From assembly GCA_902522415.1 (NCBI GenBank), contig CABYVI010000003.1, positions 5,092 through 69,091 on the forward strand: DNA of 64,000 bases, given 5' to 3'. Positions within the stretch are counted from its first letter, which is position 1. Each line of letters opens with the position of its first letter. The notes under the pieces are model-generated. The model made no database searches. It had not been told where the DNA came from and saw only the letters and a list, made by a program, of their open reading frames with translations. A program made the position numbers and the translations under genes. Below are positions 1 to 27,631 of this stretch, piece by piece. The DNA is from an uncultured SAR116 cluster alpha proteobacterium. Lineage in GTDB: Bacteria > Pseudomonadota > Alphaproteobacteria > Puniceispirillales > GCA-002684695.

Positions 1-714
1 AAGGGAATATCAAGGTTAGGGCTTTCAGACGTTCCATTGGGTGTTGGAAGTGTGCCAAAGATTTTTAACTTAGTTCAGGCTACAGACGCTGCTGGAAACG
101 ACTTATTTGTTGATGCTAACGGAAATGTTACTACAACACCCCCAGCAAACCAAGTTGATGGATTTTTTCCATTATACATTGATGAGGGTGAACTTACATT
201 TGATAAAACTGGTAAATTACTAAGTCCCAAAAATAAAGTTCACTACGAAAAGCAGGAAGAAGGTTTCTCTATTGATTTGAATATTGACTTTGCTTCTTCA
301 ACTCAGTTTGCTCAACCATTTTCGGTTCTTTCAGTTGAGCAGGATGGTTTTACATCTGGTCGTCTTGATGGTTTGGAAATTGACGCGTCAGGTACTGTCA
401 GAGCTAACTATACAAATGGACAAAACGATCCATTAGGTAAAATGGTACTTGCAAACTTTAACAACCAGAACGGTTTGAAGCAGATTGGTAACGCGACATA
501 TGTTGAAACAGCGGTATCTGGTTCTGCACAGGTTGGTGAAGCGGGCTCTGAGGGTTTCGGTACAATTCTTTCTGGTTCTCTTGAAAGATCAAATGTTGAT
601 ATTACGGAAGAGCTTGTTAATTTGATTACAGCTCAAAGAAACTTCCAGGCTTCTGCAAAAGCCATTGAGACTACAACAACCCTAACCCAGACAATCATTA
701 ATATTAGAATGTAA
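1..714 (+). CDS. flgE: Flagellar hook protein FlgE, C-terminal part (gene starts upstream of the window; frame open from nt 1)
   Basis: C-terminal axial-protein region SLERSNVDITEELVNLITAQRNFQASAKAIETT; sits directly upstream of flgF-flgG. Confidence 0.85.
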   Translation, partial: KGISRLGLSDVPLGVGSVPKIFNLVQATDAAGNDLFVDANGNVTTTPPANQVDGFFPLYIDEGELTFDKTGKLLSPKNKVHYEKQEEGFSIDLNIDFASSTQFAQPFSVLSVEQDGFTSGRLDGLEIDASGTVRANYTNGQNDPLGKMVLANFNNQNGLKQIGNATYVETAVSGSAQVGEAGSEGFGTILSGSLERSNVDITEELVNLITAQRNFQASAKAIETTTTLTQTIINIRM

Positions 715-4220: not shown

Positions 4221-4541
4221 ATGGAAAATTTTATCACACCAGGCTTAGATCCAAAAACTTCTTTTGAAATAAGTTCGAATAAGACTAAAAAATTAAATGC
4301 AGACACTACAAGCTTAAATGAAGCAGCAGAGAGATTTGAGGCTTTATTTTTATCTCAAATGCTCAAATCAGCGAGAGCTGCAAAATTATCAGAAGATATA
4401 ATGGGCAACAATGCAACAGATACTTACTACGCAATGATGGATAATGAATTGGCAGAAAAATTATCAAAGGCAGGTAATTTTGGGATTGCAGAAGCTCTTA
4501 TCAGACAATTTGGTGGAAATGTAGAGGACAAAGATAAGTAA
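4221..4541 (+). CDS. flgJ: FlgJ-like rod-binding protein (rod-binding domain only, no muramidase domain)
   Basis: 106 aa; AAERFEALFLSQMLKSAR rod-binding motif; lies between flgI and flgK; stop overlaps the flgK ATG (TAATG). Confidence 0.7.
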   Translation: MENFITPGLDPKTSFEISSNKTKKLNADTTSLNEAAERFEALFLSQMLKSARAAKLSEDIMGNNATDTYYAMMDNELAEKLSKAGNFGIAEALIRQFGGNVEDKDK

Positions 4542-7500
4542 TGTCTAGTTTATTTGACATTGGTAAAAGTGCTGTTCAGTCATACCGTCAGGCATTGGCA
4601 GTAACTGGACAAAACATAGCTAATGTTAACACAGATGGATATAAAAGAAGAGAAGCTGACCTCAAAGAGGTTGGAGCTAGTAGTGGCAGTGTTACTTCAA
4701 CTGGTAATTCAGCAGGCCTTGGTGTTCGTGTAGAAAATATAAGAAGGTCATTTGATCAATTTTTATTAGATCGCTCAAGAAGTTCAATTGCAAATTATGA
4801 AAAACTAAAGTCTTACACAGATCAAATGAAGCAACTCGAAGATATTTTGCTCCCAGGTGACGCTGATATCGGTAGTTATATTGGTAGATTTTTTGGTGCT
4901 TTACAGGACATAGCTGCTAATCCTGGCGATCTTGCTCCTAGAACTGTTGCTCTTGAAGAGGGGAAAAGTCTGGCTGGTGCTTTTAGAAATCTATCTTTTC
5001 AACTAGAAGAAATGCAAAAAAATGGAAAATCTCAAGCTGATGATACTTGTTCGGCAATTAATATTGTTGTAACTCAATTAGTTGACGTAAATGAAAGGCT
5101 ACTATCTTCAAGTCTGGGAAGTTCTCCAAACTCAACTCTAGACTTAAGAGACAGGCTTCTTGAAGAATTATCAAAATTAACCGATATATCAGTTTCATAT
5201 AACGAGAGAAAAGACGTAACTGTAACAATTGGTAAAACAGGTGCAGGGCCAAAATTATTATCTGGGAAAATTGCAACAAAAATTGGAGTAGCAGATACGG
5301 GCGGTGTTATACAGGTTTTAATGGGTGCCGGAACATCAAACACTCCTACAAATCAAGTAACAGGTGGCGTTCTTGGAGGAGTTATAGACTCTTATGCCTT
5401 GATTGGTGATACCAATAGAGATATTGATAATCTTGCAGTTTTAATTTCTGAAACATTAAATGATCAGCATAAACAGGGTATTACTCTTGATGGAAAAGAG
5501 GGTGAAAATATTTTTGTAACCTCTGGTATGACTGTCAGTCCAGGTAGAGCAAACAGATCTTCTGTATCAGCAGAAATTGTTATAAGTGATATTGAAAAGC
5601 TTCCAAAGGGCCAACTTACAGCAAAATTTAATGAAGTTCAGAATAGATGGACACTATCTGGTTCATCTTTAGAAAACAATATTTTTGGAACGAGTGAAAT
5701 TAAAGGACCAGGTTTCTCATTAAATATTTTAGGCAAACCAACAGATGGAGACGAATTATCAACCACTCCACTTACTGGTGCAGCTTCAGGTATGCAATTT
5801 ATGTTGAGAAGGGCACAAGATTTTGCAGCTGCTTCAAAAACATTGGTTAGTGCAACAGTTTCAAATAAAGGAACTGCAGATATTACAGCAAGTACAGGAA
5901 AAATAAAAACGTCCGATAATCCTCCATTATTGAATAATGTATTTACAAATTCTAATTCTCCCCTAACAGCAACAAATTTTCTAAGTGATGGAGCTGTTTC
6001 TGCAATACCTACTGGATCACAAGAGGCGGATATTCTTAGTTTCAAAACTCAATCACAAATGAGTTTTCAATTAACTGAGGCCGAAATACCAACAACTACT
6101 TCACTGACACTCGAAGTAAATAGTGTTCCTCATGTATTTGACCTTACTTATTCAAGTGTATACCCGAAAGCAGTTGCATCAGAAAAATGGAAATCTTGCG
6201 GTGAAATTGCAACAGCTTTAAACAGAGGTATAATTAAAAATTCTAATTCACAAACACTTTCTGATTTAGGCCTTTTTGCCTCAGGATCTGGAGGAAGCAT
6301 AACGTTTGCATCATCTGAAAACGACTTCTCAGGCCAGTCAACTATTAGTTCAGGTGGCGGTACAATTTTAGGAATAAGCAAAGCATCAGCACTTCCATCA
6401 AATGTTCAGGTTTTTACAAGAGAGGGAAGGCATCTAGCTGGGACACCCCTTACGAAAGAAGATATTGCAAAACTTGTTACCATTGACAATGGCTTTAATG
6501 AGGGAGCAAGTTACAGAGCAGATTACATAAATTTAAGTGGTGATAAAGCATACAGAGGCTTGTCTTTAGAAAGAAAGACTGCAACAGGTGACCATGTAAT
6601 TACCTTGGGGTCTAACAGTAATTCGGTTACTGCAAATACATCAGGAATTGGTTCATCAATTGGTGCAACAATTACGACAGGAACAAATCACGGTTTCTCT
6701 ACTGGAGACACTGTTCAGTACCTCGCTAATAGTACTGCCCTAACTGGATTAACTGATAAAGCAGTATATAAAGTAGCATCTATTAATGGTACAAATCAAT
6801 TTACTCTCACAAAAACTGATGGAACAACACTTACTTACGGAGGTAGTAACGGCCATGCTAATGATAGTTTTAAACTTTTTAACGTTAATTCATCAGGTAT
6901 AATTCCATCTAAAACTATTTTCCCATCAAGTGCTGTATCTGCTTATAATGCAAGTATATCAATGTTTGGCGGTGAGAGCGGAAATATTGATATTCCAGCA
7001 GGTTCATCTGCAGGATTTTCTGCAAATAAAATAAATACTGACCTTGCAAATCTTGGCGTCCAAGCAGAAGCCATTACTAGGGTTGAATTGTCAATGGCAG
7101 AAATTGGTTCTCTGTCCTATGGTCAAACAAGAGTCAACCAGGGTTCTGGATCACCAGCTATAAGCTTATCATCTACTTCCACAAATGGTGCAGCAACTGG
7201 TGAAACAGAGTTTAAAGTTGGCGATATTATAAAATATGAAGCTGTTGATGACCATGCAACAAATGGTGGGCCTTTACAGGGATTAACTGAGTTTGCTGAA
7301 TATATGGTTGCAAGTGTTTCCTCTAACAGTATAACATTAAAAAATACAGATGGAACTTCATTAACCTATGGAAACACAGGCGGGGCAACAGGGGTTGCAT
7401 CTCATTTCGATAGTTTTACCTTGGTTAGAAGAACAGGCCAAGTAACATTAGACTTTGAGTCCAAGAACCAGGATGCAATCAATATTTCAGCTACAATTTC

Positions 7501-10500
7501 ATCTGATGATATGACCGATCTAGCAAAGAAAATTAATGAGCACTCTGCAAATACTGGAGTGACAGCATTTTTATCAGTTGATAAGAAAAAAGTGGTTCTT
7601 GAGAGTAAAGACGGTGACGATATAATGATGACAAATTTTTCATCATCAAGTCCACCACTTAATTTAAAATCACTAGGAGAAAACTTTGAAACTCTTGGTA
7701 ATGAGGTAAAATTAGATAATACTAACTTTGATGCAGCAAGATTTACTGGCTATGTTAAATTGAATGCTGGAGGATCATTTTCTTTAACAACAAACGCTGG
7801 TTCAAATAACTCAACAGTCTCTAGTACAACTGATATTTTTGAAAATAGCTTTATAGAAAAAAGCATGACACCAACTGGCGAGCAAATGACTCTAAAATTT
7901 GATGCATTTGAGGGTGCTGATGGAAATGGATCTTCAGTTGACGGTTCTATGGCTCTTGCTGCAGGTGGCGAGTATAAATTGACAATTCCTAATACTGGTT
8001 CAGGGACCTCATTCTCATCTACAGTCAAAACTAAAGATTTAGAAAGTATCACATCAAATACTGTCGCTGCAGAAATAGCAAAAAAATTACGCTCTGATAC
8101 ACTCATAGCTTCGGTATCAGGTAAAAGTTCAGTAAATGAATTACCTGAAGCAGGAGACAAGTTAGTTGTAAAATTTGCAGAGCAAAATTATACACTTACA
8201 ATGCTTGATAATGGACGTGATGCAGTGCCTGCAACTGCTACGTTAAGTGTAAGCAACGCAGATACAGTTGCAGCTGCAGGAAACCGAATTCATCTAATTT
8301 TATCAGCCGGCATGGAACCAGAAATTGATTTGGATTACACTGTTCAGGCAGGTCAAACTAATATTTCAAGTATAGTTTCAGGACTTAACACTGCTCTAAA
8401 TACTGCAGGAGCTTCTGATAAATACTCATTTTCATTCAGAGGAACCAATTTAATTTTATCTAGAAAGGATGGAGTTAATTTTCAATCATACAAGGGTGCA
8501 AATCAAACAACAAATATACTATTTTTTGATGGTGTTGATATTAGAACTGGAGCTGGTAGAGAGACTATTAATGGCGCAACAACAAATAAAACGCTAATCA
8601 CAACAGATGGGAAACTTTCTGTTGAGAGAGAAATTGAAATATCTGGTGGTGAAAAGAATAGGCTTAATGCTTATTTTGATGAAAATAAAAAGTTACAAAT
8701 TTTTGCTGGTGGGAGTCTTTCTGGACAGCAAATAATAATTCCTGATGATAACTCTGTTTCAGGTAATAGTAGTGCTGCCACTAGATTTGGAATAGATCGA
8801 GCAATAGGAACATTAACAGGAAATGAGATTGCAGTCCCTGCAACAACTTCGACTACGAATGTTAAAGTAGGTGATATTGATTATACTTTAACCATTAATC
8901 CAAATAATGGTGGTAAAGTAACTGCAGAATTAAAAGATGGAAATAATATTGTTCCAACTAACATATTACTCGATGCAACTGTAAACTGGATGAGCAATAT
9001 TATTACTTCAGATACAACGAGTATTGCATCTTCAGCTGGTGCAGTTATCACTTCTGATAGTGATCACGAATTTAAGGTTGGAGACAAAGTAAAATACTTT
9101 AAAGGAGGCACTGCACTTACTGGGTTAACACATAATACTGAATATACAGTTGCATCCATTGTAAAAAAATCTAGCTCTCAAGCTAATACGGTTGGCCTCA
9201 CGCGAGCTGCTAGTTCCACAATAACAACTGCTAATGCTCACGAGTTTAAGGTTGGAGACTTTGTAAAATACGTAAAAGGCGGGACGAATAACCTTCAAAG
9301 TCTGACTGATGGGGAGGTTTATAAAATAAAAGAGGTTGTTGGCACCAATCAATTTAAACTTCAAACAGCTGGTGGCAGTGACTTCACTTACGGTGGAACT
9401 GGTGGTAGTTCAGCAGATGCATTCATCCGATTTGACGGCTTTTCGTTAAAAAGTGCAGCAGGTGCAACCATTACTTACGGTGGTGGAAACGGCCACGCAG
9501 CTGATCAGTTTGTAAAATCAGAAAATATTAGAACCGCTGATACAACAGGGCAAACGAACAATACATCTGCAACAATAACAGTTGGTGAGGGTCACGGATT
9601 TAAAGTAGGAGATTCTGTGACTTATATTCCAGCGGGAACAAGCGTTCAAGGATTAGGGGCAAATATCAACTATAGAGTAAAAGCTCTTATTGGCTCAACT
9701 GGAATTTCGCTACAGACAACAGCAGGCGCTGATTTTGCTTACTTGGGAACAGATGGAAGTGCAAATGATGTTTTTGTAAAGGCTAACGGAAGAATATCAA
9801 TAAAGACCAATCCATATAGTAATAAGGAATATAAATTTGATCATACTGCTAACGCTGAGGCTCTAGGTATTAAAGTATCGGACTACAGAGTTAATGTTGA
9901 CAATGATAAATTAGTAATTGCATCCACTGAAGGAAAAGTTGTTTCTGCTGATACAACAGGAAGCAACACAAGCGTTAAAAGCTTAATTGGAAGCAATATT
10001 AATATTAAAAATGTTGGCAATGAGGATTTAATAATGATTGTCAATGGCGGTGGCGCAAGAAGTGTCGCAACAAGGTCTGACCCCCCTGCCCCAAATTATG
10101 AAGCAAAACCTTCAAACATTGACATCAAAGTTGCAAACGCTGAGGGTAGTGTTATCGAATTCCTTGATGCAACCACGGGTCATTCAATCGCTACAAGAAC
10201 ATTAGACACTGTAGGTAGAGCTGAAGCTGCTGGTTATAAAGTTGTTGTCAAAGGTAAAGGCCAGCTCGATGACAGTTTTAAAATATCAGACAATGCTGGT
10301 GGAACAGGTGACGCAAGAAACTTAGATGCCATGATAATGCTTCAAACTGAAGATGCAAATGGTCCTAATTCAGGTGGGTTCAGAGAAGTTTTTGACAATA
10401 TTGTCACAGGTGTAGGAGCATCAGTATTATCAGGCGGTCTATCTTTAGAGGCAGCTGAAGCAACAAAAGAAGCGGCAATTGCATCAGAACTAGAATTTTC

Positions 10501-10621
10501 TGGTGTGAGTTTGGACACTGAAGCTGCACAGCTTCTGGAGCAACAACAAGCATTTCAAGCTTCTGCAAGAATTCTATCAACTGCTAAACAACTATTTCAA
10601 ACATTACTAGACGTAGTGTAG
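4541..10621 (+). CDS. flgK: Giant hook-filament junction protein FlgK (HAP1), 2026 aa
   Basis: N-terminus SSLFDIGKSAVQSYRQALAVTGQNIANVNTDGYKRR and C-terminus EAAQLLEQQQAFQASARILSTAKQLFQTLLDV are FlgK-type. The ~1500-aa central region contains flagellin-IN-like motifs and five HGF-x-x-GD modules. Confidence 0.85.
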   Translation: MSSLFDIGKSAVQSYRQALAVTGQNIANVNTDGYKRREADLKEVGASSGSVTSTGNSAGLGVRVENIRRSFDQFLLDRSRSSIANYEKLKSYTDQMKQLEDILLPGDADIGSYIGRFFGALQDIAANPGDLAPRTVALEEGKSLAGAFRNLSFQLEEMQKNGKSQADDTCSAINIVVTQLVDVNERLLSSSLGSSPNSTLDLRDRLLEELSKLTDISVSYNERKDVTVTIGKTGAGPKLLSGKIATKIGVADTGGVIQVLMGAGTSNTPTNQVTGGVLGGVIDSYALIGDTNRDIDNLAVLISETLNDQHKQGITLDGKEGENIFVTSGMTVSPGRANRSSVSAEIVISDIEKLPKGQLTAKFNEVQNRWTLSGSSLENNIFGTSEIKGPGFSLNILGKPTDGDELSTTPLTGAASGMQFMLRRAQDFAAASKTLVSATVSNKGTADITASTGKIKTSDNPPLLNNVFTNSNSPLTATNFLSDGAVSAIPTGSQEADILSFKTQSQMSFQLTEAEIPTTTSLTLEVNSVPHVFDLTYSSVYPKAVASEKWKSCGEIATALNRGIIKNSNSQTLSDLGLFASGSGGSITFASSENDFSGQSTISSGGGTILGISKASALPSNVQVFTREGRHLAGTPLTKEDIAKLVTIDNGFNEGASYRADYINLSGDKAYRGLSLERKTATGDHVITLGSNSNSVTANTSGIGSSIGATITTGTNHGFSTGDTVQYLANSTALTGLTDKAVYKVASINGTNQFTLTKTDGTTLTYGGSNGHANDSFKLFNVNSSGIIPSKTIFPSSAVSAYNASISMFGGESGNIDIPAGSSAGFSANKINTDLANLGVQAEAITRVELSMAEIGSLSYGQTRVNQGSGSPAISLSSTSTNGAATGETEFKVGDIIKYEAVDDHATNGGPLQGLTEFAEYMVASVSSNSITLKNTDGTSLTYGNTGGATGVASHFDSFTLVRRTGQVTLDFESKNQDAINISATISSDDMTDLAKKINEHSANTGVTAFLSVDKKKVVLESKDGDDIMMTNFSSSSPPLNLKSLGENFETLGNEVKLDNTNFDAARFTGYVKLNAGGSFSLTTNAGSNNSTVSSTTDIFENSFIEKSMTPTGEQMTLKFDAFEGADGNGSSVDGSMALAAGGEYKLTIPNTGSGTSFSSTVKTKDLESITSNTVAAEIAKKLRSDTLIASVSGKSSVNELPEAGDKLVVKFAEQNYTLTMLDNGRDAVPATATLSVSNADTVAAAGNRIHLILSAGMEPEIDLDYTVQAGQTNISSIVSGLNTALNTAGASDKYSFSFRGTNLILSRKDGVNFQSYKGANQTTNILFFDGVDIRTGAGRETINGATTNKTLITTDGKLSVEREIEISGGEKNRLNAYFDENKKLQIFAGGSLSGQQIIIPDDNSVSGNSSAATRFGIDRAIGTLTGNEIAVPATTSTTNVKVGDIDYTLTINPNNGGKVTAELKDGNNIVPTNILLDATVNWMSNIITSDTTSIASSAGAVITSDSDHEFKVGDKVKYFKGGTALTGLTHNTEYTVASIVKKSSSQANTVGLTRAASSTITTANAHEFKVGDFVKYVKGGTNNLQSLTDGEVYKIKEVVGTNQFKLQTAGGSDFTYGGTGGSSADAFIRFDGFSLKSAAGATITYGGGNGHAADQFVKSENIRTADTTGQTNNTSATITVGEGHGFKVGDSVTYIPAGTSVQGLGANINYRVKALIGSTGISLQTTAGADFAYLGTDGSANDVFVKANGRISIKTNPYSNKEYKFDHTANAEALGIKVSDYRVNVDNDKLVIASTEGKVVSADTTGSNTSVKSLIGSNINIKNVGNEDLIMIVNGGGARSVATRSDPPAPNYEAKPSNIDIKVANAEGSVIEFLDATTGHSIATRTLDTVGRAEAAGYKVVVKGKGQLDDSFKISDNAGGTGDARNLDAMIMLQTEDANGPNSGGFREVFDNIVTGVGASVLSGGLSLEAAEATKEAAIASELEFSGVSLDTEAAQLLEQQQAFQASARILSTAKQLFQTLLDVV

Positions 10622-10630
10622 GAGGAATAA

Positions 10631-11917
10631 ATGCAAGTAAGTACAAAATTATTCAATCAACAATCAGTTAATCAGTTCGGAAAACTGACCAGTGAAATTC
10701 AAGATCTTCAGGCAAAGGTTTCAACTGGGAAAAGTATTTTAAAATCTTCAGATGATCCAGTTGCAGCAGTTGAGTTATCTGCAGCCAAAGAGCAAAAAAA
10801 TATTTTGGAAAGGTTCAGAAGGAATATTGACTCTGCTCAAAGAAGATTAGATTTATCCGATGGTTCTATGCAGCAAGCAATCAACGTTATGACAAGAATT
10901 TCAGAATTAGCTATTCAAGCTGCCAACGACACAAATGGCGTTCCTGAGAGAATTGCCATTAGAACTGAAGTAGAGCAACTCGCAAATGTAATGCTTGAAA
11001 TAGCAAATACTAGAGATGCTCAAGGACAAAGTTTATTTGCTGGATACCACACTAATACTCAAGCTTTCATCAAAAACGTTGACGGAACATTCACTTATAA
11101 TGGAGATCGAGGGAAACACACTCTTCAGATTTCTGAATCAATGAACGTTGCAACAAGTATTGATGGAGGCACAGCTTTTGAAACAGTAGACACAGGTTCT
11201 GGCAGAAAAAGTGTTTTTGATATTATTACAAATATTGTAAACACAATTAACAATGCAGATGCTTTATCTAGCCAAGGATCTGCACGTGCGATGGCGTCAA
11301 TAGATTTCAAAGTACCCAGAGATCCTCAAAATTGGTCTTTTGTTTTAACAGGTGGATTAGGATCTTCAACTGTAGACATAACAGTTTCTGATGGAAACTA
11401 CGATGATACAGTTACTAAAATTAATGCGCTTACTTCAGTAACTGGCGTAAAAGCAAGTTTAGACAATGACACAGGCAGAATAACTTTAACGGATAGCCAA
11501 AGTCGAACTATAAAAATTTCTAATATTGAAATTGAGGGAACTGATTTTGCGACTGGAGAGATAAATAGTTATATTGATTTTAATACTCTTGAGGGATCTG
11601 GCGCAGAAGTTGGTTCTTCTCGAAGGTTGACTGATACAAATCAATTAATATCAAGTTCAGTTGAGGATGTAAAAAAGGCAACAGATCATCTGAGTTTACA
11701 AAGATCATTTTTGGGCGCTCAGCTTAATAAAGCTGAACTTCAAAAAGATTCTATTGACCAAAGGATCATGGCAACATCTGAAAGAGTTTCTGATCTTGGA
11801 GACGCAGACTTAGCTGCAATCGTTACTCAAATTCAGAGTTTGTTGATTAACAGAGATGCTGCTCAACAAGCATATGCAAAAATAAGTCAAAACAGCCTGT
11901 TTGATTTCCTAAAATAG
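10631..11917 (+). CDS. flgL: Hook-filament junction protein FlgL (HAP3)
   Basis: 428 aa; flagellin-like N-terminus (SSDDPVAAVE...RISELAIQAANDT) and C-terminal helix; follows flgK. Confidence 0.8.
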   Translation: MQVSTKLFNQQSVNQFGKLTSEIQDLQAKVSTGKSILKSSDDPVAAVELSAAKEQKNILERFRRNIDSAQRRLDLSDGSMQQAINVMTRISELAIQAANDTNGVPERIAIRTEVEQLANVMLEIANTRDAQGQSLFAGYHTNTQAFIKNVDGTFTYNGDRGKHTLQISESMNVATSIDGGTAFETVDTGSGRKSVFDIITNIVNTINNADALSSQGSARAMASIDFKVPRDPQNWSFVLTGGLGSSTVDITVSDGNYDDTVTKINALTSVTGVKASLDNDTGRITLTDSQSRTIKISNIEIEGTDFATGEINSYIDFNTLEGSGAEVGSSRRLTDTNQLISSSVEDVKKATDHLSLQRSFLGAQLNKAELQKDSIDQRIMATSERVSDLGDADLAAIVTQIQSLLINRDAAQQAYAKISQNSLFDFLK

Positions 11918-12024: not shown

Positions 12025-13527
12025 ATGACTTCCATCAATAGTGACCAAATGTCTGCAATGGTTCTCGCGAGCCTTAATAAGTCTAATGCAACTATGCAAG
12101 AATCTATGCAAAGGTTATCTACAGGTAAAAGAATTAACCATGCAGGTGACGATGCTGCTGGTCTGTCTATCTCAGCAAAACTCAGAGCGCAGGTTGATAG
12201 TTTAAATGCAGCAATTAAAAATTCATCAGATGCATTGGCAATGGTGAGTACGATTGAAGGTGCACTCGTTGAAACTACGACTATACTCCAAAGAATGAGA
12301 CAATTATCTGTTCAGTCTTCCTCTGATACCAACACAGGAAATGACAGAACTTATCTTCAAGACGAAGTAAATCAATTAATTACTGAAATTAATAGAATTT
12401 CTACTAATACAGAATTTAACTCAACAAAACTTTTAGACGGAACTTTTACTGATAAAAATATTCAAATAGGAACAGCATCTAATCAAGTTTTAAGACTAGG
12501 TGTAAGTGCTACAGATTCTACAAAATTAGGAGCATATCAACTAGATAGTGTGGATGAGAGTATTGCTCCAGAAGATACTCATGCATCTGCTAAAACTGTT
12601 TTAAATGCTTTGTATGATGCCACAGCAGATTACGTTGTTAAAGGTACTTTTGGCACGTTTACAGCTTCAGTTGATGCTGGAGCTGATGCAAGAGATGTTG
12701 CTTCATCTTTTAATTTAATAGGAGGGAATACAGGCGTTAACGCGACAGCACTTACTCGTGCGAAAATGACCGTTTCTGCAGCAGCAACATTCAGTTTTAC
12801 ATTTGAGGGTAAAAGTACAACAACTTCTCAAATAACAGCTACTGTAACTTCTGCGACTGACTTGACTGCAATAAAAGATGCTATTAATGCAGTATCGGGT
12901 TCTACAGGTATTTCAGCTGCTTTGACATCTGATAAATCTGGGGTAGAAATTACACAAGCAGAGGGATACGATATTATTATCGGTGATGTATCAACTGGTT
13001 CAACTGACGCTAACTTACTAGTTACGGCCATGGATATGGATGGAAACCTTGATACAGGAAATACGAGAACATTAGATGGTGACGGAACAACTGGTGACTC
13101 AACAGCGATTGTTGGTACAGTTCGCCTTTCAAGTCAAAACGCTTATACGGTTTCGCCAGGTCATGCGAATAATCACTTTTCTGCTGCTACTACAGAATTG
13201 ACTGCATCACATAGTACAATTTCAGCAGTTTCTCTTACAACAAAGGAAGGTGCGACAAAAGCTATGTCAGTTATTGATGGTGCTTTGTTAATGATATCAG
13301 GTATTAGATCAAATATGGGTTCAGCTAACAATAGACTACAATCTACTATCGATAATCTAAGTAATATTGCAGTGAACGCTCAAAAATCACTTTCAACAAT
13401 AGAAGATGCTAACTTTGCTGAAGAAACTGCAAAACTTACAAAAGCACAAATACTTGCGAAAGCAGCTACATCTATGCTTGCTCAAGCGAATAAAGCAAAA
13501 GAAACAATGCTTGCATTGCTGCAATAA
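12025..13527 (+). CDS. fliC: Flagellin (500 aa)
   Basis: RLSTGKRINHAGDDAAGLSIS N-terminus, NRLQSTIDNL...AQANKAKETMLALLQ C-terminus; central flagellin-IN-like motif DLTAIKDAINAVSGSTGISAAL. Confidence 0.95.
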   Translation: MTSINSDQMSAMVLASLNKSNATMQESMQRLSTGKRINHAGDDAAGLSISAKLRAQVDSLNAAIKNSSDALAMVSTIEGALVETTTILQRMRQLSVQSSSDTNTGNDRTYLQDEVNQLITEINRISTNTEFNSTKLLDGTFTDKNIQIGTASNQVLRLGVSATDSTKLGAYQLDSVDESIAPEDTHASAKTVLNALYDATADYVVKGTFGTFTASVDAGADARDVASSFNLIGGNTGVNATALTRAKMTVSAAATFSFTFEGKSTTTSQITATVTSATDLTAIKDAINAVSGSTGISAALTSDKSGVEITQAEGYDIIIGDVSTGSTDANLLVTAMDMDGNLDTGNTRTLDGDGTTGDSTAIVGTVRLSSQNAYTVSPGHANNHFSAATTELTASHSTISAVSLTTKEGATKAMSVIDGALLMISGIRSNMGSANNRLQSTIDNLSNIAVNAQKSLSTIEDANFAEETAKLTKAQILAKAATSMLAQANKAKETMLALLQ

Positions 13528-13557
13528 AAATTTAATTGTTCATATAAGAATTTTTAT

Positions 13558-14100
13558 TTATTTATCAGATGGCTTCAAAGATATAGCATCAAAAATTGTA
13601 AATTCTTCAGTAGCCAGATCTCTTAAAAAATCAATATCTTTCTCGTCGTCAATTTTCCATCCACTGGGTGACGGTTTGCTTAAATCAGATCTCAGTGAAT
13701 ACATATAAGACTTAAACATTTTTATAATGCCTCTTTCTTCGTAATTACGATCTCTTTCTCCATCAAAAATTGATCCAAGAAGCGGTTTGCGATTTCTGAT
13801 TTTACCATTATCAAAGTTAATCGTATTATATATGAAACCGTCTAGGTACTTAGTTGCATCTGAACCCGCCTCTACTTCTGCTAATATCCTAATTATATCT
13901 TCTGCAATTGATGAGATCTCAATTGGATTGACTTCGTCATATTTTTCTAAAAGAGCTTTAGAATATCTTCTTGCCACTAAGTCGATGGGTATATCCTTGA
14001 CAAGAAAATCTCTAGCTGTAAGACCAATACAAGCTGCGTAAACCCATTGAGGGCAATATACAGCCATTTTACCTCCACTAGATAATAAGTTTGATAACAT
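13558..14100 (-). CDS. Hypothetical protein (180 aa) on the opposite strand inside the flagellin array
   Basis: Intact ORF, convergent with flagellin 1; no recognisable motif. Confidence 0.4.
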   Translation of the reverse strand: MLSNLLSSGGKMAVYCPQWVYAACIGLTARDFLVKDIPIDLVARRYSKALLEKYDEVNPIEISSIAEDIIRILAEVEAGSDATKYLDGFIYNTINFDNGKIRNRKPLLGSIFDGERDRNYEERGIIKMFKSYMYSLRSDLSKPSPSGWKIDDEKDIDFLRDLATEEFTIFDAISLKPSDK

Positions 14101-14334
14101 AATAATACACTTCGTTTAAAAATTATAGAACAAAGTAACTATTGCAAATTATATGCCCAAACAGTCACTTTTTCTAAATAAAGCTGAAAAGAAAAAAACA
14201 TTTAACTCTACATTATTATTTAGGCAATTTTAAACAAAATTTTTGTGAAAAAACCCATAATAAACGACACAAAAAAAATTTGTTTAGAAATAAAAAAAAA
14301 TAATAAAATCAATAACTTTTTACTAAAAATAAAC

Positions 14335-14360
14335 TAAACATTTTTACTATATGCCGTTCA
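14335..14360 (+). promoter_or_regulatory. Sigma-28-like promoter of flagellin 2 (TAAA-N14-GCCGTTCA)
   Basis: TAAACATTTTT...GCCGTTCA, same architecture as 11935-11960. Confidence 0.5.
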
Positions 14361-14370
14361 TTTACTTGTA

Positions 14371-14434
14371 CGGAGGTGGTCAGCGAAAACCTTCTCCGCG
14401 TTTAAATTTAATTAACTCGGAAAGGAGACAAAAA
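14371..14434 (+). promoter_or_regulatory. Flagellin 2 leader: hairpin with GGTCAGCGAAAA loop and anti-SD arm
   Basis: CGGAGGT-GGTCAGCGAAAA-CCTTCTCCG. The 3' arm CCTTCTCCG is also complementary to the RBS region CGGAAAGGAG at 14418-14427. Confidence 0.5.
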
Positions 14435-15952: not shown

Positions 15953-16004
15953 AGGCCGCCATTGGATTTGAGAAACTAATGGTAGTTTAGTCTACCTACT
16001 ACGG

Positions 16005-16048
16005 AGCCCCAATTTAGAAATGACCGTCTAAGTTGGGGCTAAAAAAAA
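16005..16048 (+). other. 14-bp hairpin (loop AATGACCG) followed by an A8 run, in the flagellin 2/3 intergenic region
   Basis: AGCCCCAATTTAGA-AATGACCG-TCTAAGTTGGGGCT, one G.U pair; no U-run, so not a canonical terminator. Confidence 0.5.
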
Positions 16049-16084
16049 CTCAAGATGAAAGTCTTGAACAACAAGGAGATAAAT

Positions 16085-17587: not shown

Positions 17588-17607
17588 TAATTTCAACTTT
17601 GTTTTTA

Positions 17608-17639
17608 GGGGAAGGGTTCCGCCCTTTCCCTTTTTTTTT
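17608..17639 (+). terminator. Intrinsic terminator after flagellin 3
   Basis: GGGGAAGGG-TTCCG-CCCTTTCCC followed by T9. Confidence 0.8.
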
Positions 17640-17658
17640 AAAATAATTATCTAAATTT

Positions 17659-17674
17659 TGGCATGGTATTTGCT
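17659..17674 (+). promoter_or_regulatory. Sigma-54 promoter of the 802-aa flagellin
   Basis: TGGCAT-GGTAT-TTGCT, 40 nt upstream of ATG 17714. Confidence 0.7.
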
Positions 17675-17713
17675 CATTGGACGTTGACCTCAAAATAAAA
17701 TAAAGGTGCAACA

Positions 17714-20122
17714 ATGAGTATTTTAACAAATTTAGCGGCTTTAAAATCGCTGTATCACATAAATCAGAATGAAGGTGAATTCTCTACTTCAGTAGAAAGA
17801 GTGTCTTCTGGTAAAAGAGTAAATAACGCAGGCGATGATGCTGCAGGCGCATCAATCATCAATAGAATGACATCTCAGGTACAGGGTATGAGCGTTGCAA
17901 TAAGAAATGCTGGAGATGCTATTTCTATGGCTCAAGTAGCTGAAGGCGCACTCGATGAAACAACAGAAATTTTACACAGACTGAGAGAAATAGCTGTTCA
18001 GTCTGCTAATGGAACTTACAGCGGCGCGAATAGAGTTGCACTAAACGCCGAAGTTGTTGCATTAAAAACAGAGTTATTAAGAATCGCTGAATCTACAAAA
18101 TTTAATGATGTAAAATTATTAAATGGGCAATTTCAAGATACTACATTTGCTATTGGTTATGATGAAAGTCCCGGTCATACACACTCATTAAGTATTGAGT
18201 CTGTAAAGCCAGATGACCTTGGTATGTGGACAATTACAACCGAACAGGAAAATACTGCCACTCTTAAAACAAGTGGAATGGGAAATTATGGAGAAGCTGC
18301 AAATATAGACACTGCAGCTGATCATTTATTTGAAACAGGTGATATTATTACTTATGAACAGGGACCAGCTGCTACAAGTATTCCAGTTCCAGGTCTAGTA
18401 GACGGGAAAAGTTATAAAGTGACAGTTGTTGACTCTGATTCATTTACTCTTACACATCTTGATGGATCAAAGGTTAAATATGGCGCAATCTCAAATTTTG
18501 GCACACCATCAAATGCTAAATTTCATTTACAAAGTATCTCTAATGCACCAACAGTAGGCTTGTCCAAAGGTTCTTACGCAGCCACTGGGGGAACTGATCA
18601 ATCAGCACCAGCATCAGAGGTTTTAAAAACAGAAGATGTTATGGTCCACGGACATGTTGGTTCATCTGAAGTACAGTTAAGAACTGGAATGACAGCTCTT
18701 GAAATTGCTAATGCAGTATCAAATATGGATTCACTTACCGGTGTTCGTGCTTCAGCAGTAACAAATGCTCGAATAACAGTATCACCAAGCGATAATACTG
18801 ATGATAAGCATGTGATTGCATTTGATTTGCAGGGTATGAATACAACTACACCAGTAAAAATTTCAGCAACCATAGGATTTGGTACAGGTGACGAAGTTCA
18901 TTCAGCAGACCTCTCTGATCTAAGAGATAAAATTAATGGTTTCACAGGCACAACAGGAATTTATGCAAAACTTTCATCAGACAAAAGCTATATTGATATA
19001 AAATCACCAGATGGATATGATGTTGTAATTGACAATGTGGATATGCCAACTGACACCGGCACAACGTTAACCCAAGCACTTGTTAACGCGAGTGGAGCAA
19101 ATACGAGTGATACAATTACCTCAGCATTAGCTCATGGATTTCAAGTAGGTGACATGATTAAGCTAACGGATGTCCATGGTGAAACAGGACTTGTTGGAAT
19201 AGATATGGAAACAACCTATTTTGTCAAAACTGCTCCAACATCTACAACCTTTACTTTAGCAACAGGTTCGCCAGATGGAACAACTGTTGATATTACAACA
19301 ACCAACAACGGTCATTTAGAATTTACTAAATTAGAAAAAACACTTAACCTTCAGACACTTGACAGAGACCTTAATGTAAAAGGTGGCAAAGTAAAGTTAA
19401 TGGATAAAGACATTGAATTACAAGGCTCTGGAGTTGGTGCTGTTATGACATCAGTAGCGTCAAGTGCATCAAATGCAAATATTACCTGCAGCAATGACCA
19501 TAGGTTGCAAGTTGGAGATGTTGTAAAATATACTGTAGGAAGTGTAGTTATTGCTGGATTGACAGATGGTGAATTCTACAAAGTTAAGGCTACATCATCT
19601 GATACAGTTTTTACATTAGAGAATTTAGATGGAACCGATCCTACTTATGGTGGCTCTGGAACTGGTGGCACATTTACTAAAGTAGTATCAAATGAAAATT
19701 CATTGCGACTAACAGGTGAAGTTCAATTTGAATCTGCTTATACATTTACTGTTGTTCCAGCAGTTCAGGACTCTTTATTCAGAGCAGCACCACCTGCAGC
19801 AAACTTAAATAAAGTTTCAGATCTTGATGTTTTAACAGTTGAAAAGTCACATAAATTTCTTACAGCTCTTGATGGAGCTATTAAAAGAATTGACGCAGAA
19901 CGTGGTGACCTTGGTGCGACAATGAATAGAATGCAACATACAATTGATAATTTATCAAATGTAATTGTTGGGACTAAATCAGCACGTGGCAGAATTGAAG
20001 ATGCAGACATGGCTGCAGAAACTGCTAATCTAGCAAAAAATCAAATTCTCCAGCAAGCAGCAACCGCAATGCTTGGTCAAGCAAACCAATCAATGCAAAC
20101 AATTCTTACACTTCTAAGATAA
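17714..20122 (+). CDS. fliC: Large flagellin (802 aa) with three HGF-x-x-GD-type modules in the variable region
   Basis: RVSSGKRVNNAGDDAAGASII N-terminus, DLGATMNRMQHTIDNL...GQANQSMQTILTLLR C-terminus; flagellin-IN-like motifs; modules at about 18300-18532, 19108-19330 and 19465-19686. Confidence 0.9.
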   Translation: MSILTNLAALKSLYHINQNEGEFSTSVERVSSGKRVNNAGDDAAGASIINRMTSQVQGMSVAIRNAGDAISMAQVAEGALDETTEILHRLREIAVQSANGTYSGANRVALNAEVVALKTELLRIAESTKFNDVKLLNGQFQDTTFAIGYDESPGHTHSLSIESVKPDDLGMWTITTEQENTATLKTSGMGNYGEAANIDTAADHLFETGDIITYEQGPAATSIPVPGLVDGKSYKVTVVDSDSFTLTHLDGSKVKYGAISNFGTPSNAKFHLQSISNAPTVGLSKGSYAATGGTDQSAPASEVLKTEDVMVHGHVGSSEVQLRTGMTALEIANAVSNMDSLTGVRASAVTNARITVSPSDNTDDKHVIAFDLQGMNTTTPVKISATIGFGTGDEVHSADLSDLRDKINGFTGTTGIYAKLSSDKSYIDIKSPDGYDVVIDNVDMPTDTGTTLTQALVNASGANTSDTITSALAHGFQVGDMIKLTDVHGETGLVGIDMETTYFVKTAPTSTTFTLATGSPDGTTVDITTTNNGHLEFTKLEKTLNLQTLDRDLNVKGGKVKLMDKDIELQGSGVGAVMTSVASSASNANITCSNDHRLQVGDVVKYTVGSVVIAGLTDGEFYKVKATSSDTVFTLENLDGTDPTYGGSGTGGTFTKVVSNENSLRLTGEVQFESAYTFTVVPAVQDSLFRAAPPAANLNKVSDLDVLTVEKSHKFLTALDGAIKRIDAERGDLGATMNRMQHTIDNLSNVIVGTKSARGRIEDADMAAETANLAKNQILQQAATAMLGQANQSMQTILTLLR

Positions 20123-21624: not shown

Positions 21625-21640
21625 TTTTCAGAAGGTTTAA

Positions 21641-23833: not shown

Positions 23834-23834
23834 A

Positions 23835-25393: not shown

Positions 25394-27631
25394 TTAGTCA
25401 CTATTCTGAGCTTCCATGAAGTTATCTAGGTATTCACCAGTAGATTTAAAGCTATTTACAACAGATTCCATTGCTCCATACTGTTCTTTATATCTATCAC
25501 GCAATTTTTCAATATCTTTATCTAATTCAATCAAGTCTTCATTGTATTCATTTAATTCTTGGTTAAGTGTGTTTGTTCTTGTAGACAATGATCCTGAGTT
25601 TGAAAGTATAGAGTTGAGATATTTTGTAATAGTTGAAACATAACTATTACCTATTGAAATATATGCATCTGAACCTGGAGCAACAACTCCAAGACTAAGT
25701 CCAAAAGCATCACCAGATAAAGTTCTAAATCCCGTTGATGTTTGCTCAATTGAAGATCCTGCAAGTGTGGCACCAGTAACATCTCCAGTCCCTGAAACAA
25801 CTGTACCGCCCTCAATTCCAAGAAAATTATTCAATCCGCTGTCAATTGAATTTATAACAATGTTACTTTCTGAACCATATTTTTTAGAAGTAATCACATA
25901 CTTTCCATTTAAGTAAGACACTGTTACACCCTCACCTTTAACAGCCAGAATGTTATCTGCATTTATTGCAGTTTCAAGTGCATTTGCTAAAGATGAAGTT
26001 GTAGAAAATGGACCGCCAGTGACGTTTATTGTATTTGATGTTACTCCATTTAATGTTATTGAAAGACTTTGGCTGCCATTTGATGGTGTATAGTTTGAAG
26101 CTGTAATATCTGTAGATGGGGAGCTACCAGTGAGTGTTGCTTGAGTTCCAATATCAAAAAAGTAATATCCAGGTTTATAATTTGAGCCTGTTAAAAATGG
26201 TGATATAAAAGATGAAGTGCTATGCAGTCTATCTGAAAAAAGTGCTGTTAAAGCTTGAGGGTCTTCTTTAAATGCTAAGTCAAACATTCTTTCATTAAGT
26301 TTAAGCCCGCCAGTTTTAGTAGTTGAAACTCCTAAATTAGCCAAATAAATAGGTTTTTCCCCGTAACCAAAAATTGGTTCAGTAGTTAATTTTCCTAACC
26401 TATCAGAGATTGCACGAATTGATGAATCACCGGCAAGAGCTCCCTTTTTTCCACCGTTCAAACCTCTTTCAGTAAGTTCACTTAGTTGACTTGCAAGATT
26501 ATTAACTTCTTCTACTAAACTCTCTAAAGCTGAGAGCACTTTATCTTTTGAAGTGGAAACTGATACAATAGCAGGAGAGGAGGTAGTATTAACTAATGAT
26601 AGGGTTGCTCCATCTATAACATCAACAATTTCATTATTGCTTCTTGAAATTGAAACACCATCAACTGTAAATGAAGCATTTTGTGCGTTTGCTGTCTCTG
26701 TGTTTGTTCTTAAAAAAGTATCATTTGAACTTCCATTACCTCCACCATATGTAATTGTATTCCCATTGCTATCATTTAAAGTAAATGACGTGGTAGATGG
26801 AACAGATGCAATTTTATACGATGTGAGAGAAGAAAGTCCATTTAAAGCTGTACCACCAGCTAAGTACTGAACAGTATCACCAACTTTTAAGCCATGTGCA
26901 GATGTTGAATTTAATACCGCTCCTGATGAACTTGATATAGCCGAAGTATTTGATGTATATGTAGTATGTTCTATAGATTTCAAACCCGAGTTTGAACCCT
27001 CAGTTATATCTATTTTAAATGCATTTGATAAACCAGTATTAGATCTTAGAACTAAAGCATAATCTGAAGTATCTTTTTTTACAATAGATGCAGTTACTCC
27101 AAGATTACCAAGATTTATTTTATCCTTAATATCAGTTAACGAATAAGCCGAGTTAGAAATACTCACTGTTTTTTGAGAATAAGACGTATCAGCTGTAAAT
27201 ACCCCATTGGACCACGTACCCTTTTGAAAAACAATATCACCATCACCAACAAGAGCACTACTTGAAGCAAAACCATCAAAAACAAGGGTCTGTGACGATG
27301 CGAGTTTAGAAACATTTATTGAGCTTGTAATCTCTTTAACAGAAGCAGGATCTGTAACGGTTAATGCAACGGAAGTACTAGTACTGGAACCCTCAAAAAC
27401 ATTTGTTCCTTCCATAGCATCAATTATTTTTGTTGATTCTGATATAGATTTTTTCAATTCAGCGATTGCAGAAATAGAAATTTCATTTTTCTCTATTTTA
27501 TCATTAATTTTTTTCTCTTTTGGAGCTCTTTCTGCTGTAATGAGGTTTTTAATTAATTCAGTCGTATTTAATCCACTTCCGACGTTTAATGCACTAAAGA
27601 CATCAGTTTCTGACATTTTGTAATTATCCAA
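25394..27631 (-). CDS. fliD: Filament cap protein FliD (HAP2), enlarged (745 aa), with one HGF-x-x-GD-type module
   Basis: N-terminus GSGLNTTELIKNLITAERAPKEKKIN, C-terminus LIELDKDIEKLRDRYKEQYGAMESVV; module SAHGLKVGDTVQYLAGGTALNGL... at about 26709-26935. Confidence 0.9.
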   Translation of the reverse strand: MDNYKMSETDVFSALNVGSGLNTTELIKNLITAERAPKEKKINDKIEKNEISISAIAELKKSISESTKIIDAMEGTNVFEGSSTSTSVALTVTDPASVKEITSSINVSKLASSQTLVFDGFASSSALVGDGDIVFQKGTWSNGVFTADTSYSQKTVSISNSAYSLTDIKDKINLGNLGVTASIVKKDTSDYALVLRSNTGLSNAFKIDITEGSNSGLKSIEHTTYTSNTSAISSSSGAVLNSTSAHGLKVGDTVQYLAGGTALNGLSSLTSYKIASVPSTTSFTLNDSNGNTITYGGGNGSSNDTFLRTNTETANAQNASFTVDGVSISRSNNEIVDVIDGATLSLVNTTSSPAIVSVSTSKDKVLSALESLVEEVNNLASQLSELTERGLNGGKKGALAGDSSIRAISDRLGKLTTEPIFGYGEKPIYLANLGVSTTKTGGLKLNERMFDLAFKEDPQALTALFSDRLHSTSSFISPFLTGSNYKPGYYFFDIGTQATLTGSSPSTDITASNYTPSNGSQSLSITLNGVTSNTINVTGGPFSTTSSLANALETAINADNILAVKGEGVTVSYLNGKYVITSKKYGSESNIVINSIDSGLNNFLGIEGGTVVSGTGDVTGATLAGSSIEQTSTGFRTLSGDAFGLSLGVVAPGSDAYISIGNSYVSTITKYLNSILSNSGSLSTRTNTLNQELNEYNEDLIELDKDIEKLRDRYKEQYGAMESVVNSFKSTGEYLDNFMEAQNSD

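What the first reader, a model, noticed from the sequence alone, without database searches (positions are those of the whole stretch)
4541..10621. Giant FlgK: 2026 aa, roughly four times the usual hook-associated protein 1
Canonical FlgK N- and C-terminal helices flank about 1500 aa of Ser/Thr/Gly/Asn-rich inserted domains. These include several flagellin-IN-like motifs (for example DMTDLAKKINEHSANTGVTAFL) and five copies of a ~70-aa module.

E. coli FlgK is 547 aa. A junction protein of this size implies a large decorated collar at the hook-filament junction.
Basis: partly seen in the sequence, partly recalled or inferred. Interest (0 to 1): 0.6.

Follow-up and report, generated by a model that had tools for sequence, protein, structure and literature searches.

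The report
Giant FlgK junction protein in SAR116
This is a real, intact 2026-residue flagellar hook-filament junction protein (FlgK) from a marine SAR116 bacterium, but oversized FlgKs are normal in its branch of the family and were already studied in Rhodobacter sphaeroides, so only its extra barrel modules are new.

Summary
The ORF at 4541-10621 (+) is real. It encodes a complete FlgK of 2026 aa (211 kDa) between flgJ and flgL in a large flagellar cluster of a SAR116 (Puniceispirillales) alphaproteobacterium.

All of Salmonella FlgK maps onto residues 1-434 and 1920-2026. About 1485 aa are therefore inserted at a single site.

It is not an assembly chimera:
- Thirteen 90%-identity clusters, including single-cell genomes, give 2024-2030 aa orthologues.
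- Metagenome coverage shows no gap and no supported rearrangement.
- There are no long DNA repeats.
- dN/dS in the insert is about 0.06-0.08.

The size is not exceptional for its relatives. Among the 116 complete nearest cluster representatives the median is 1364 aa, and two are longer (2125 and 2341 aa). Cereibacter (Rhodobacter) sphaeroides FlgK1 (1363 aa) has an EM-visible bulky junction. It shares the same insert core.

What is specific to this lineage is about 600 extra residues. They include five copies of a roughly 74-aa beta-barrel module that looks like the E1-FCCH domain and phage baseplate or fibre domains, and one copy is nested inside another.

The same module also occurs in the 802-aa flagellin and the FliD cap in this window, and in a 1433-aa FlgE hook protein of a relative.

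Only one Flagellin_IN motif is statistically supported.

Verdict: a new variant of a known kind, of moderate interest.

The parts
4541..10621 (+). flgK, 2026 aa, 211 kDa, pI 5.0
4541..5842 (+). Canonical FlgK N-terminal part (aa 1-434: D0, D1 and the D2/D3-equivalent region), colinear with Salmonella FlgK residues 1-440
   Evidence: Pfam
5843..10297 (+). Single-site insert of about 1485 aa (aa 435-1919). Four blocks are shared with the 1360-1780-aa FlgKs, including C. sphaeroides FlgK1 (aa 435-700, 963-1229, 1361-1460, 1751-1919). Three blocks are lineage-specific (about 700-960, 1230-1360, 1490-1750).
6659..6880 (+). Module copy 1 (aa 707-780)
7175..7420 (+). Module copy 2 (aa 879-960), the most variable copy among orthologues (64% mean pairwise identity)
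7445..7612 (+). Flagellin_IN motif (aa 969-1024), the only statistically supported one
9035..9169 (+). Module copy 3, N-terminal half (aa 1499-1543; profile positions 1-47)
9209..9433 (+). Module copy 4 (aa 1557-1631), nested inside copy 3. Weak Pfam E1_FCCH hit.
9434..9520 (+). Module copy 3, C-terminal half (aa 1632-1660; profile positions 46-74)
9563..9790 (+). Module copy 5 (aa 1675-1750)
10298..10618 (+). Canonical FlgK C-terminal D1/D0 helices (aa 1920-2026), colinear with Salmonella FlgK residues 447-552
4221..4541 (+). flgJ, short form (106 aa, rod-binding domain only), translationally coupled to flgK
10631..11917 (+). flgL (428 aa), the junction partner of FlgK
17714..20122 (+). 802-aa flagellin carrying three copies of the same module
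25394..27631 (-). fliD cap protein (745 aa) carrying one copy of the module, 49-50% identical to FlgK copies 1 and 3

Best explanation
This is the functional hook-associated protein 1 (FlgK) of a SAR116 alphaproteobacterium. It belongs to the giant-FlgK lineage of Fla1-type flagella, whose studied member is C. sphaeroides FlgK1.

By analogy with Salmonella and Campylobacter, eleven subunits polymerise on the hook tip through the conserved D0/D1 helices at the two ends. The roughly 1485-aa insert leaves and re-enters the chain at one point on the outer side, equivalent to Salmonella residues 440-447. It is built from flagellin-outer-domain-like alpha/beta units plus five small E1-FCCH-like / phage-fibre-like beta-barrels.

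Inferred, not shown: the insert projects radially and forms a collar of about 2.3 MDa that stiffens or buffers the hook-to-filament transition under load. That collar would sit between a hook, filament subunit and cap that are themselves enlarged with the same barrel module.

This lineage grew from the roughly 1400-aa ancestral giant form by three insertions. These include module duplication, exchange of modules between flagellar genes, and one nested insertion.
For: Identity as FlgK:
- Pfam and TIGR02492 hits above their cutoffs.
- Colinearity with the solved Salmonella FlgK over its whole length.
- Gene order flgF-G-H-I-J-K-L followed by flagellins.

Real and under selection:
- 13 clusters of 2024-2030 aa at 80-94% identity, plus a 1989-aa relative at 57%.
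- Present in SAR116 single-cell genomes and MAGs.
- Metagenome contigs cover the whole gene in three runs with no gap, and a metatranscriptome covers most of it.
- The only DNA repeats are short and diverged.
- dN/dS is 0.06-0.08 in the insert.

Same kind as C. sphaeroides FlgK1:
- P0189 is C. sphaeroides FlgK, 1363 aa.
- It aligns to query residues 3-689, 969-1149, 1351-1451 and 1717-2026.
- The cluster has two sigma-54 activators, only one with an HTH domain, and a short FlgJ, as in Fla1 systems.
- PMC7277832 reports a bulky HAP region for FlgK1 and swimming defects after 100-aa deletions in its centre.

Stoichiometry: 11 FlgK per junction (PMC12221982).

Fold of the insert:
- The model of aa 435-1500 (pLDDT 71.5; shared cores 80-92) matches P. 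aeruginosa FliC D2/D3 (E 4e-7) and H. pylori and C. jejuni flagellins.
- The module model matches the E1 FCCH domain and phage depolymerases in the PDB. It matches cyanophage baseplate and fibre proteins in BFVD (E 1e-9).

Shared module: found in the 802-aa flagellin and FliD here, and in FlgE (1433 aa) and flagellins of relatives.
Against: - No structural or microscopic data exist for any SAR116 flagellum, so the collar and its mechanical role rest on analogy with one organism.
- AlphaFold gives no reliable inter-domain arrangement. pTM is about 0.6, and aa 1310-1360 and several linkers have pLDDT below 50.
- dS is saturated (1.2-2.6), so the dN/dS values are approximate.
- The metatranscriptome evidence comes from contigs only and may contain DNA.
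- The module's similarity to E1_FCCH is below Pfam's threshold (20.8 against 29.5 bits).
Confidence: 0.8

Rival explanations
1. The main job of the insert, especially the five barrels, is surface interaction rather than mechanics. Candidates are binding glycans or particles (flagellar adhesion), serving as a scaffold for glycosylation or sulfation, or shielding the axial core from flagellotropic phages or grazers. The collar would then be only one part of a continuous module coat on hook, junction, filament and cap.
For: - The same module is present on all four extracellular axial proteins.
- Its fold resembles the repeated decoration domains of marine phage baseplate, fibre and depolymerase proteins, which contact cell surfaces.
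- The insert is Ser/Thr-rich.
- TPR-glycosyltransferase-like and TPR-sulfotransferase genes lie beside the flagellin genes.
- Copy 2 evolves fastest.
Against: - No ligand-binding motif or family above threshold was found.
- The modules are under purifying selection (dN/dS 0.08-0.14), not the diversifying pattern expected for immune or phage evasion.
- In C. sphaeroides, deletions in the FlgK centre abolish swimming with normal-looking flagella, which points to mechanics.
- Only 11 FlgK copies exist per flagellum, a small adhesive surface.
Confidence: 0.17
2. The giant ORF is an artefact: an assembly chimera, a repeat expansion by the assembler, or a fusion of flgK with a neighbouring gene.
For: - It comes from an uncultured marine population with microdiversity.
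- One Logan contig in run X1 joins position 6841 to 7449, skipping 607 nt.
Against: - Independent assemblies, including three single-cell genomes, give the same length and architecture.
- The two halves of the canonical FlgK lie at the two ends of the ORF.
- DNA repeats are at most 78% identical over 65 nt.
- Three metagenomes cover the whole gene with no gap.
- The single odd joint has only 31 nt on one side, is out of frame and appears in one run.
Confidence: 0.01
3. The extra domains are neutral accretion with no function. They would be tolerated because only 11 subunits are made per flagellum and the insertion site faces solvent.
For: - The insert site is a known hot spot. B. pseudomallei FlgK (673 aa) carries its extra residues at the same place.
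- Insert content differs between lineages.
Against: - Strong purifying selection acts across the whole insert.
- Length is conserved within 6 residues over 13 clusters diverged to 80% identity. The nested architecture is kept even at 57% identity.
- Exporting 2026 residues through the type III channel is costly.
Confidence: 0.02

Closest known systems
FlgK1 (HAP1) of Cereibacter/Rhodobacter sphaeroides Fla1 flagellum, 1363 aa (Castillo et al. 2009 as summarised in PMC7277832)
   Same: - Homologous at the canonical ends and also across the insert core: query residues 435-689, 969-1149, 1351-1451 and 1717-1919.
- Has Flagellin_IN motifs in the insert.
- Has a Fla1-type gene cluster with sigma-54 activators and a short FlgJ.
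- Its size correlates with an EM-visible bulky HAP region, and the centre is needed for swimming.
   Different: The SAR116 protein is 663 aa longer. It has three extra blocks (about aa 700-960, 1230-1360, 1490-1750) containing five E1-FCCH-like barrels. The module profile did not detect these barrels in any of the 1411-1780-aa relatives from the whole-protein search or in the nearest representatives, which include C. sphaeroides FlgK. The one exception is P0129. One barrel is nested in another.
Canonical FlgK of Salmonella (553 aa; PDB 2d4y, 9go6) and E. coli (547 aa, from my own knowledge)
   Same: The D0/D1/D2/D3 regions are colinear with query residues 1-434 and 1920-2026. By inference it shares the same position in the flagellum, with 11 subunits per junction.
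   Different: There is no insert at residues 440-447, so the protein is 3.7 times smaller.
Giant flagellins of marine gammaproteobacteria (Bermanella, Oleibacter; PMC6248924)
   Same: The principle is the same: an axial flagellar protein enlarged by outward-facing domain insertions that yield a thicker structure, in marine bacteria.
   Different: It is a different protein, with thousands of filament subunits rather than an 11-subunit junction. That paper does not mention FlgK.
E1_FCCH domain (PF16190) and the repeated barrel domains of cyanophage baseplate-wedge and fibre proteins
   Same: These are the best fold matches for the 74-aa module. There are also weak profile hits.
   Different: The scores are below Pfam's gathering score, and tblastn against cultured phage genomes finds no match. 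The context is a flagellar axial protein, not ubiquitin activation or a virion.

Membership tests
FlgK / hook-associated protein 1 (TIGR02492, PF22638) | N-terminal rod-type D0 motif and FlgK D1 helical domain | tested here: met
   PF00460 at 6-35 and PF22638 at 96-325 with E 2e-50
FlgK / hook-associated protein 1 (TIGR02492, PF22638) | C-terminal Flg_bbr_C heptad region | tested here: met
   PF06429 at 1984-2024, E 7e-10
FlgK / hook-associated protein 1 (TIGR02492, PF22638) | Equivalog model score above the curated cutoff | tested here: met
   TIGR02492 scores 242.9 bits against a cutoff of 170.75
FlgK / hook-associated protein 1 (TIGR02492, PF22638) | Gene lies between flgJ and flgL in a flagellar operon | tested here: met
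   the same order is seen in L007
FlgK / hook-associated protein 1 (TIGR02492, PF22638) | Assembles as the proximal 11-subunit layer of the hook-filament junction | not testable with these tools
   Known for Salmonella and Campylobacter (PMC12221982); inferred here
Giant FlgK of the C. sphaeroides Fla1 type | More than 1300 aa, with a large central region between conserved ends | tested here: met
   2026 aa with an insert of about 1485 aa
Giant FlgK of the C. sphaeroides Fla1 type | Central region homologous to that of FlgK1 | tested here: met
   BLASTP segments at 3-689, 969-1149, 1351-1451 and 1717-2026 against P0189
Giant FlgK of the C. sphaeroides Fla1 type | Flagellin_IN motifs in the centre | tested here: met
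   One significant motif at 969-1024; FlgK1 shows two significant stretches in the same scan
Giant FlgK of the C. sphaeroides Fla1 type | Bulky HAP region visible by EM, with the centre required for swimming | not testable with these tools
   Reported for C. sphaeroides only
E1_FCCH (PF16190), for the 74-aa module | Pfam score at or above the gathering threshold | tested here: not met
   20.8 bits in FlgK and 22.8 bits in the flagellin, against 29.5
E1_FCCH (PF16190), for the 74-aa module | Five-stranded small beta-barrel fold matching FCCH | tested here: inconclusive
   The top PDB hits are UBA6 and UBA1, with probability 0.9-1.0 but E of only 8e-3. The solution structure of the FCCH domain alone (2v31) has TMt 0.47. 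The module pLDDT is 70-86.

The most novel reading that the evidence does not exclude
In this SAR116 lineage every extracellular axial component carries the same phage-fibre-like beta-barrel module: hook FlgE (1433 aa), junction FlgK (2026 aa), one flagellin (about 700-800 aa) and cap FliD (745 aa). The whole flagellum would then be wrapped in a continuous protein coat. The coat's function would go beyond stiffness, for example glycan or particle binding, or masking of phage receptors. The module would have been exchanged between flagellar genes, and possibly with marine phages.
Probability: 0.2. Interest if true: 0.65.

Novelty: new variant of a known kind. Interest (0 to 1): 0.38.

Why it matters
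SAR116 is an abundant surface-ocean clade. No description of its flagellar structure turned up in the literature searches run here.

The finding does not reveal a new kind of machine. It shows three things:
- The R. sphaeroides 'bulky HAP' phenomenon is widespread among marine alphaproteobacteria.
- The FlgK insertion site can accept about 1500 to 1800 residues.
- Size is gained by modular insertion, including domain-in-domain nesting and sharing of one barrel module among hook, junction, filament and cap proteins.

This gives structural biologists a natural series of 1360, 1415, 1560, 2026, 2125 and 2341 aa. The series could be used to test what the junction collar does mechanically, and how the type III export system handles 200-kDa substrates.

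Tried and rejected
- Self-BLASTP of the protein returned nothing, because the module copies are only 34-49% identical. Profile methods were needed.
- A profile search with the 9-copy module alignment against the 5.8-billion-protein collection returned only 16 short fragments of 66-142 aa and not even the parent proteins. The module's wider distribution could therefore not be surveyed that way.
- tblastn of aa 1473-1770 against 50,697 phage genomes found nothing. The phage link is at fold and profile level only.
- NCBIfam gave nothing meaningful for the module.
- An HMM built from the five Flagellin_IN instances in this window found no second significant IN motif in FlgK.
- Literature searches for 'giant flagellin' with FlgK, SAR116 with FlgK, Puniceispirillum with flagella, and FCCH with flagellin found no prior description of this protein or module.
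- The assembly-chimera and neutral-junk explanations were rejected, as set out under the rival explanations.
I could not verify in 3D that the two halves of copy 3 form one barrel, or superimpose the five IN-like units.
Full report
**Observation**

The window contains one uninterrupted ORF at 4541-10621 (+) of 2026 codons. Its ATG overlaps the stop codon of the preceding gene as TAATG. It lies in the order flgE(3' end)-flgF-flgG-flgH-flgI-flgJ(short, rod-binding only)-ORF-flgL. Four flagellin genes follow.

Several results identify the protein as FlgK:
- Pfam finds Flg_bb_rod (6-35), FlgK_D1 (96-325, E 2e-50), one Flagellin_IN (969-1024) and Flg_bbr_C (1984-2024).
- The NCBIfam equivalog TIGR02492 scores 242.9 bits against a cutoff of 170.75.
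- A profile of 14 orthologues aligns Salmonella FlgK (553 aa, PDB 9go6) residues 1-440 to query 1-434, and residues 447-552 to query 1920-2026.

The entire canonical FlgK is therefore present, and about 1485 aa are inserted at one point. B. pseudomallei FlgK (673 aa, 4ut1) carries its smaller extra segment at the same site.

**Repeats**

There are no DNA tandem repeats. The only dispersed DNA repeats are short and at most 78% identical.

At protein level, five copies of a roughly 74-aa module share the pattern H-x-F-x-V-G-D-x-V-x-Y ... G-L ... Y-x-V ... F-x-L ... G ... Y-G-G. Profiles built from the orthologues of one copy detect the others with E down to 1e-23. Nothing else in the protein repeats detectably.

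Copy 3 is split. Profile positions 1-47 lie at aa 1499-1545 and positions 46-74 at aa 1632-1660, with the complete copy 4 (1557-1631) between them. This is a domain nested in the beta3-beta4 loop of its paralogue. The arrangement is conserved in all 14 orthologues, including one at only 57% identity.

Only one Flagellin_IN motif is statistically supported, by Pfam and by an HMM built from this window's five IN instances. The AlphaFold model shows four further beta-beta-alpha-beta-beta units, with helices at about aa 553-561, 824-834, 1172-1185 and 1275-1288. I could not superimpose them.

**Not an artefact**

- The whole-protein search found 13 clusters of 2024-2030 aa at 80-94% identity from independent ENA, JGI, NCBI and Logan assemblies, plus a 1989-aa relative at 57%.
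- A scan of species-representative genomes found the gene in SAR116 single-amplified genomes (AG-899-J15, AG-343-K16; AG-891-F06 is titled a MAG) and in MAGs. This also identifies the organism.
- Contigs from three marine metagenomes cover the gene in every bin with no gap. A metatranscriptome covers most of it.
- Nei-Gojobori dN/dS against four orthologues is 0.03-0.05 in the canonical N-terminal part, 0.06-0.08 across the insert and 0.08-0.14 in the modules. dS is saturated, so these values are approximate.
- Amino-acid conservation in the insert (about 81-85%) is close to that of the ends (89-93%).

**How unusual is the length?**

I searched only the canonical N-terminal 330 aa against 1.84 billion cluster representatives, so that insert length could not bias the ranking. 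The search found 9722 relatives.

Of the best 150, 116 have both ends. Their median length is 1364 aa, 87 of the 116 exceed 1100 aa, and two exceed the query at 2125 and 2341 aa. FlgKs of ordinary size (620-680 aa) appear only near E 1e-36.

Named members of these clusters include:
- Cereibacter sphaeroides FlgK (1363 aa);
- alpha proteobacterium IMCC14465 (1439 aa);
- Candidatus Puniceispirillum sp. (cluster of a 1421-aa representative);
- Candidatus Puniceispirillales (the 2125-aa cluster).

A Parvibaculales MAG FlgK is 1414 aa. Giant FlgK is thus the rule in this branch, and 2026 aa lies in its upper tail.

**Relation to the known giant FlgK**

The review PMC7277832 states the following for R. 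sphaeroides FlgK1:
- It has 1363 residues, including an 860-residue non-conserved centre.
- This size correlates with a bulky HAP region seen by EM.
- The centre contains at least three IN motifs and internal repeats.
- 100-residue deletions in the centre impair or abolish swimming, in two cases with normal-looking flagella.

BLASTP shows the SAR116 protein aligns with it at 3-689, 969-1149, 1351-1451 and 1717-2026. The same four blocks align with the 1411-1780-aa marine relatives. The window also has two adjacent sigma-54 activators, one with and one without an HTH domain, upstream of fliF-G-H-I, fliK, fliL and fliM, as well as a short FlgJ. This resembles the Fla1 system; that comparison draws on my own knowledge of FleQ and FleT.

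The 2,0xx-aa form is therefore the Fla1-type giant FlgK plus three lineage-specific blocks: about aa 700-960 with modules 1-2, 1230-1360, and 1490-1750 with modules 3-5. The module profile hits no other giant FlgK examined except P0129 (1693 aa, two copies). The 2125-aa and 2341-aa proteins reach their size with other sequence.

**Folds**

The model of aa 435-1500 was built from a 36-sequence alignment and has mean pLDDT 71.5. The shared core blocks score 80-92, and aa 1310-1360 score below 35. Its best PDB matches are:
- P. aeruginosa FliC D2/D3 (E 4e-7 to 4e-6, TM to target 0.61-0.64);
- H. pylori and C. jejuni flagellins;
- FliD D2-D3 domains.

The core of the insert is thus made of flagellin-type outer domains.

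The model of aa 1473-1770 has pLDDT 69 overall and 70-86 in the modules. It is all-beta, with five strands per module. In the PDB it matches the FCCH barrel of the ubiquitin E1 enzymes UBA6 and UBA1 (probability up to 1.0, E 8e-3) and Klebsiella phage depolymerases. In BFVD it matches baseplate-wedge, fibre and uncharacterised proteins of cyanophages and uncultured marine phages (E 1e-9 to 1e-4).

Pfam E1_FCCH and several PHROG tail or baseplate families give weak sub-threshold hits. There is no sequence-level match in cultured phage genomes.

**The module on other flagellar proteins**

An HMM built only from the five FlgK copies also hits:
- the 802-aa flagellin in this window (three copies, E 6e-8 to 2e-16);
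- the 745-aa FliD cap (one copy, E 9e-25, 80 bits).

The FliD copy is 49-50% identical to FlgK copies 1 and 3, as close as the FlgK copies are to each other. This suggests exchange between genes.

In related SAR116 loci the module is present in several flagellins and twice in FlgE. In one relative the hook protein FlgE is 1433 aa. In this window FlgE runs off the 5' end. All four extracellular axial components of this lineage therefore carry the module.

**Mechanism**

Shown:
- The protein is a complete FlgK.
- The insert sits at one solvent-side point.
- The insert is made of flagellin-outer-domain-like units plus small barrels.
- It is under purifying selection.
- It shares its core with the one giant FlgK that has been studied.

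Inferred:
- Eleven subunits form the proximal junction layer.
- With 211 kDa per subunit, this gives about 2.3 MDa.
- The inserts form a collar like, but larger than, the bulky HAP region of C. sphaeroides.
- The collar helps the junction carry load between an enlarged hook and filament.

An additional or alternative role of the barrel coat in adhesion, glycosylation or protection cannot be excluded, and I rate it at about 0.2.

**Novelty and score**

Giant FlgK, its IN motifs, its internal repeats and its bulky junction are already known. The present protein is a longer variant from an uncultured but abundant marine clade. The new elements are five E1-FCCH-like barrels, a nested domain, and sharing of the module across hook, junction, filament and cap proteins. 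My interest score is 0.38.

Noticed in passing
window 17714-20122 (+) and 25394-27631 (-): The 802-aa flagellin carries three copies of the same roughly 74-aa barrel module found in FlgK, and the 745-aa FliD cap carries one. The FliD copy is 49-50% identical to FlgK copies 1 and 3, which suggests domain exchange between flagellar genes.
   Followed up: yes
L007 1883-6184 (relative, GCA_902578035.1); window 37-714 is the 3' end of the same gene: The hook protein FlgE of a close SAR116 relative is 1433 aa, against roughly 400 aa in E. coli, and contains two copies of the module. In this window flgE runs off the 5' end. A giant hook protein may be more unusual than the giant FlgK.
   Followed up: partly
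window 20185-25391 and 28544-30163: Genes for TPR proteins fused to a GT9-like glycosyltransferase segment (20185-21624) and to a sulfotransferase domain (21641-23833), plus two further TPR proteins, lie between the flagellin genes and fliD. They are candidate enzymes for flagellin glycosylation or sulfation.
   Followed up: no
window 31787-32908 (-) and 33093-34250 (+): Two divergent sigma-54 activator genes sit upstream of fliF-G-H-I, fliK, fliL and fliM. One has an HTH_8 domain and the other does not. This resembles the FleQ/FleT pair of the C. sphaeroides Fla1 system.
   Followed up: partly
window 6841 to 7449: One Logan contig in metagenome run X1 joins these positions, skipping 607 nt from the end of module 1 to the start of the IN domain. 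It has only 31 nt on one side, is out of frame and was not seen in the other runs. It is probably a graph artefact, though it could be a variant lacking module 2.
   Followed up: no
P0152 (2125 aa, Puniceispirillales), P0158 (2341 aa), P0129 (1693 aa): Larger FlgKs exist and lack this module, so they reach their size with other sequence. P0129 has two copies of the module. Insert content appears to evolve independently in different lineages.
   Followed up: partly
window 13558-14100 (-): A 180-aa ORF on the opposite strand lies between the first two flagellin genes and has no Pfam hit. A similar 177-aa gene occupies the same position in L007 (18985-19518, -), so it is probably a real conserved gene of unknown function.
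   Followed up: no
window 12025-20122: Four tandem flagellin genes encode proteins of 500, 533, 510 and 802 aa, each with one Flagellin_IN motif. Only the largest carries the barrel module, which suggests a multi-flagellin filament with one decorated subunit.
   Followed up: partly
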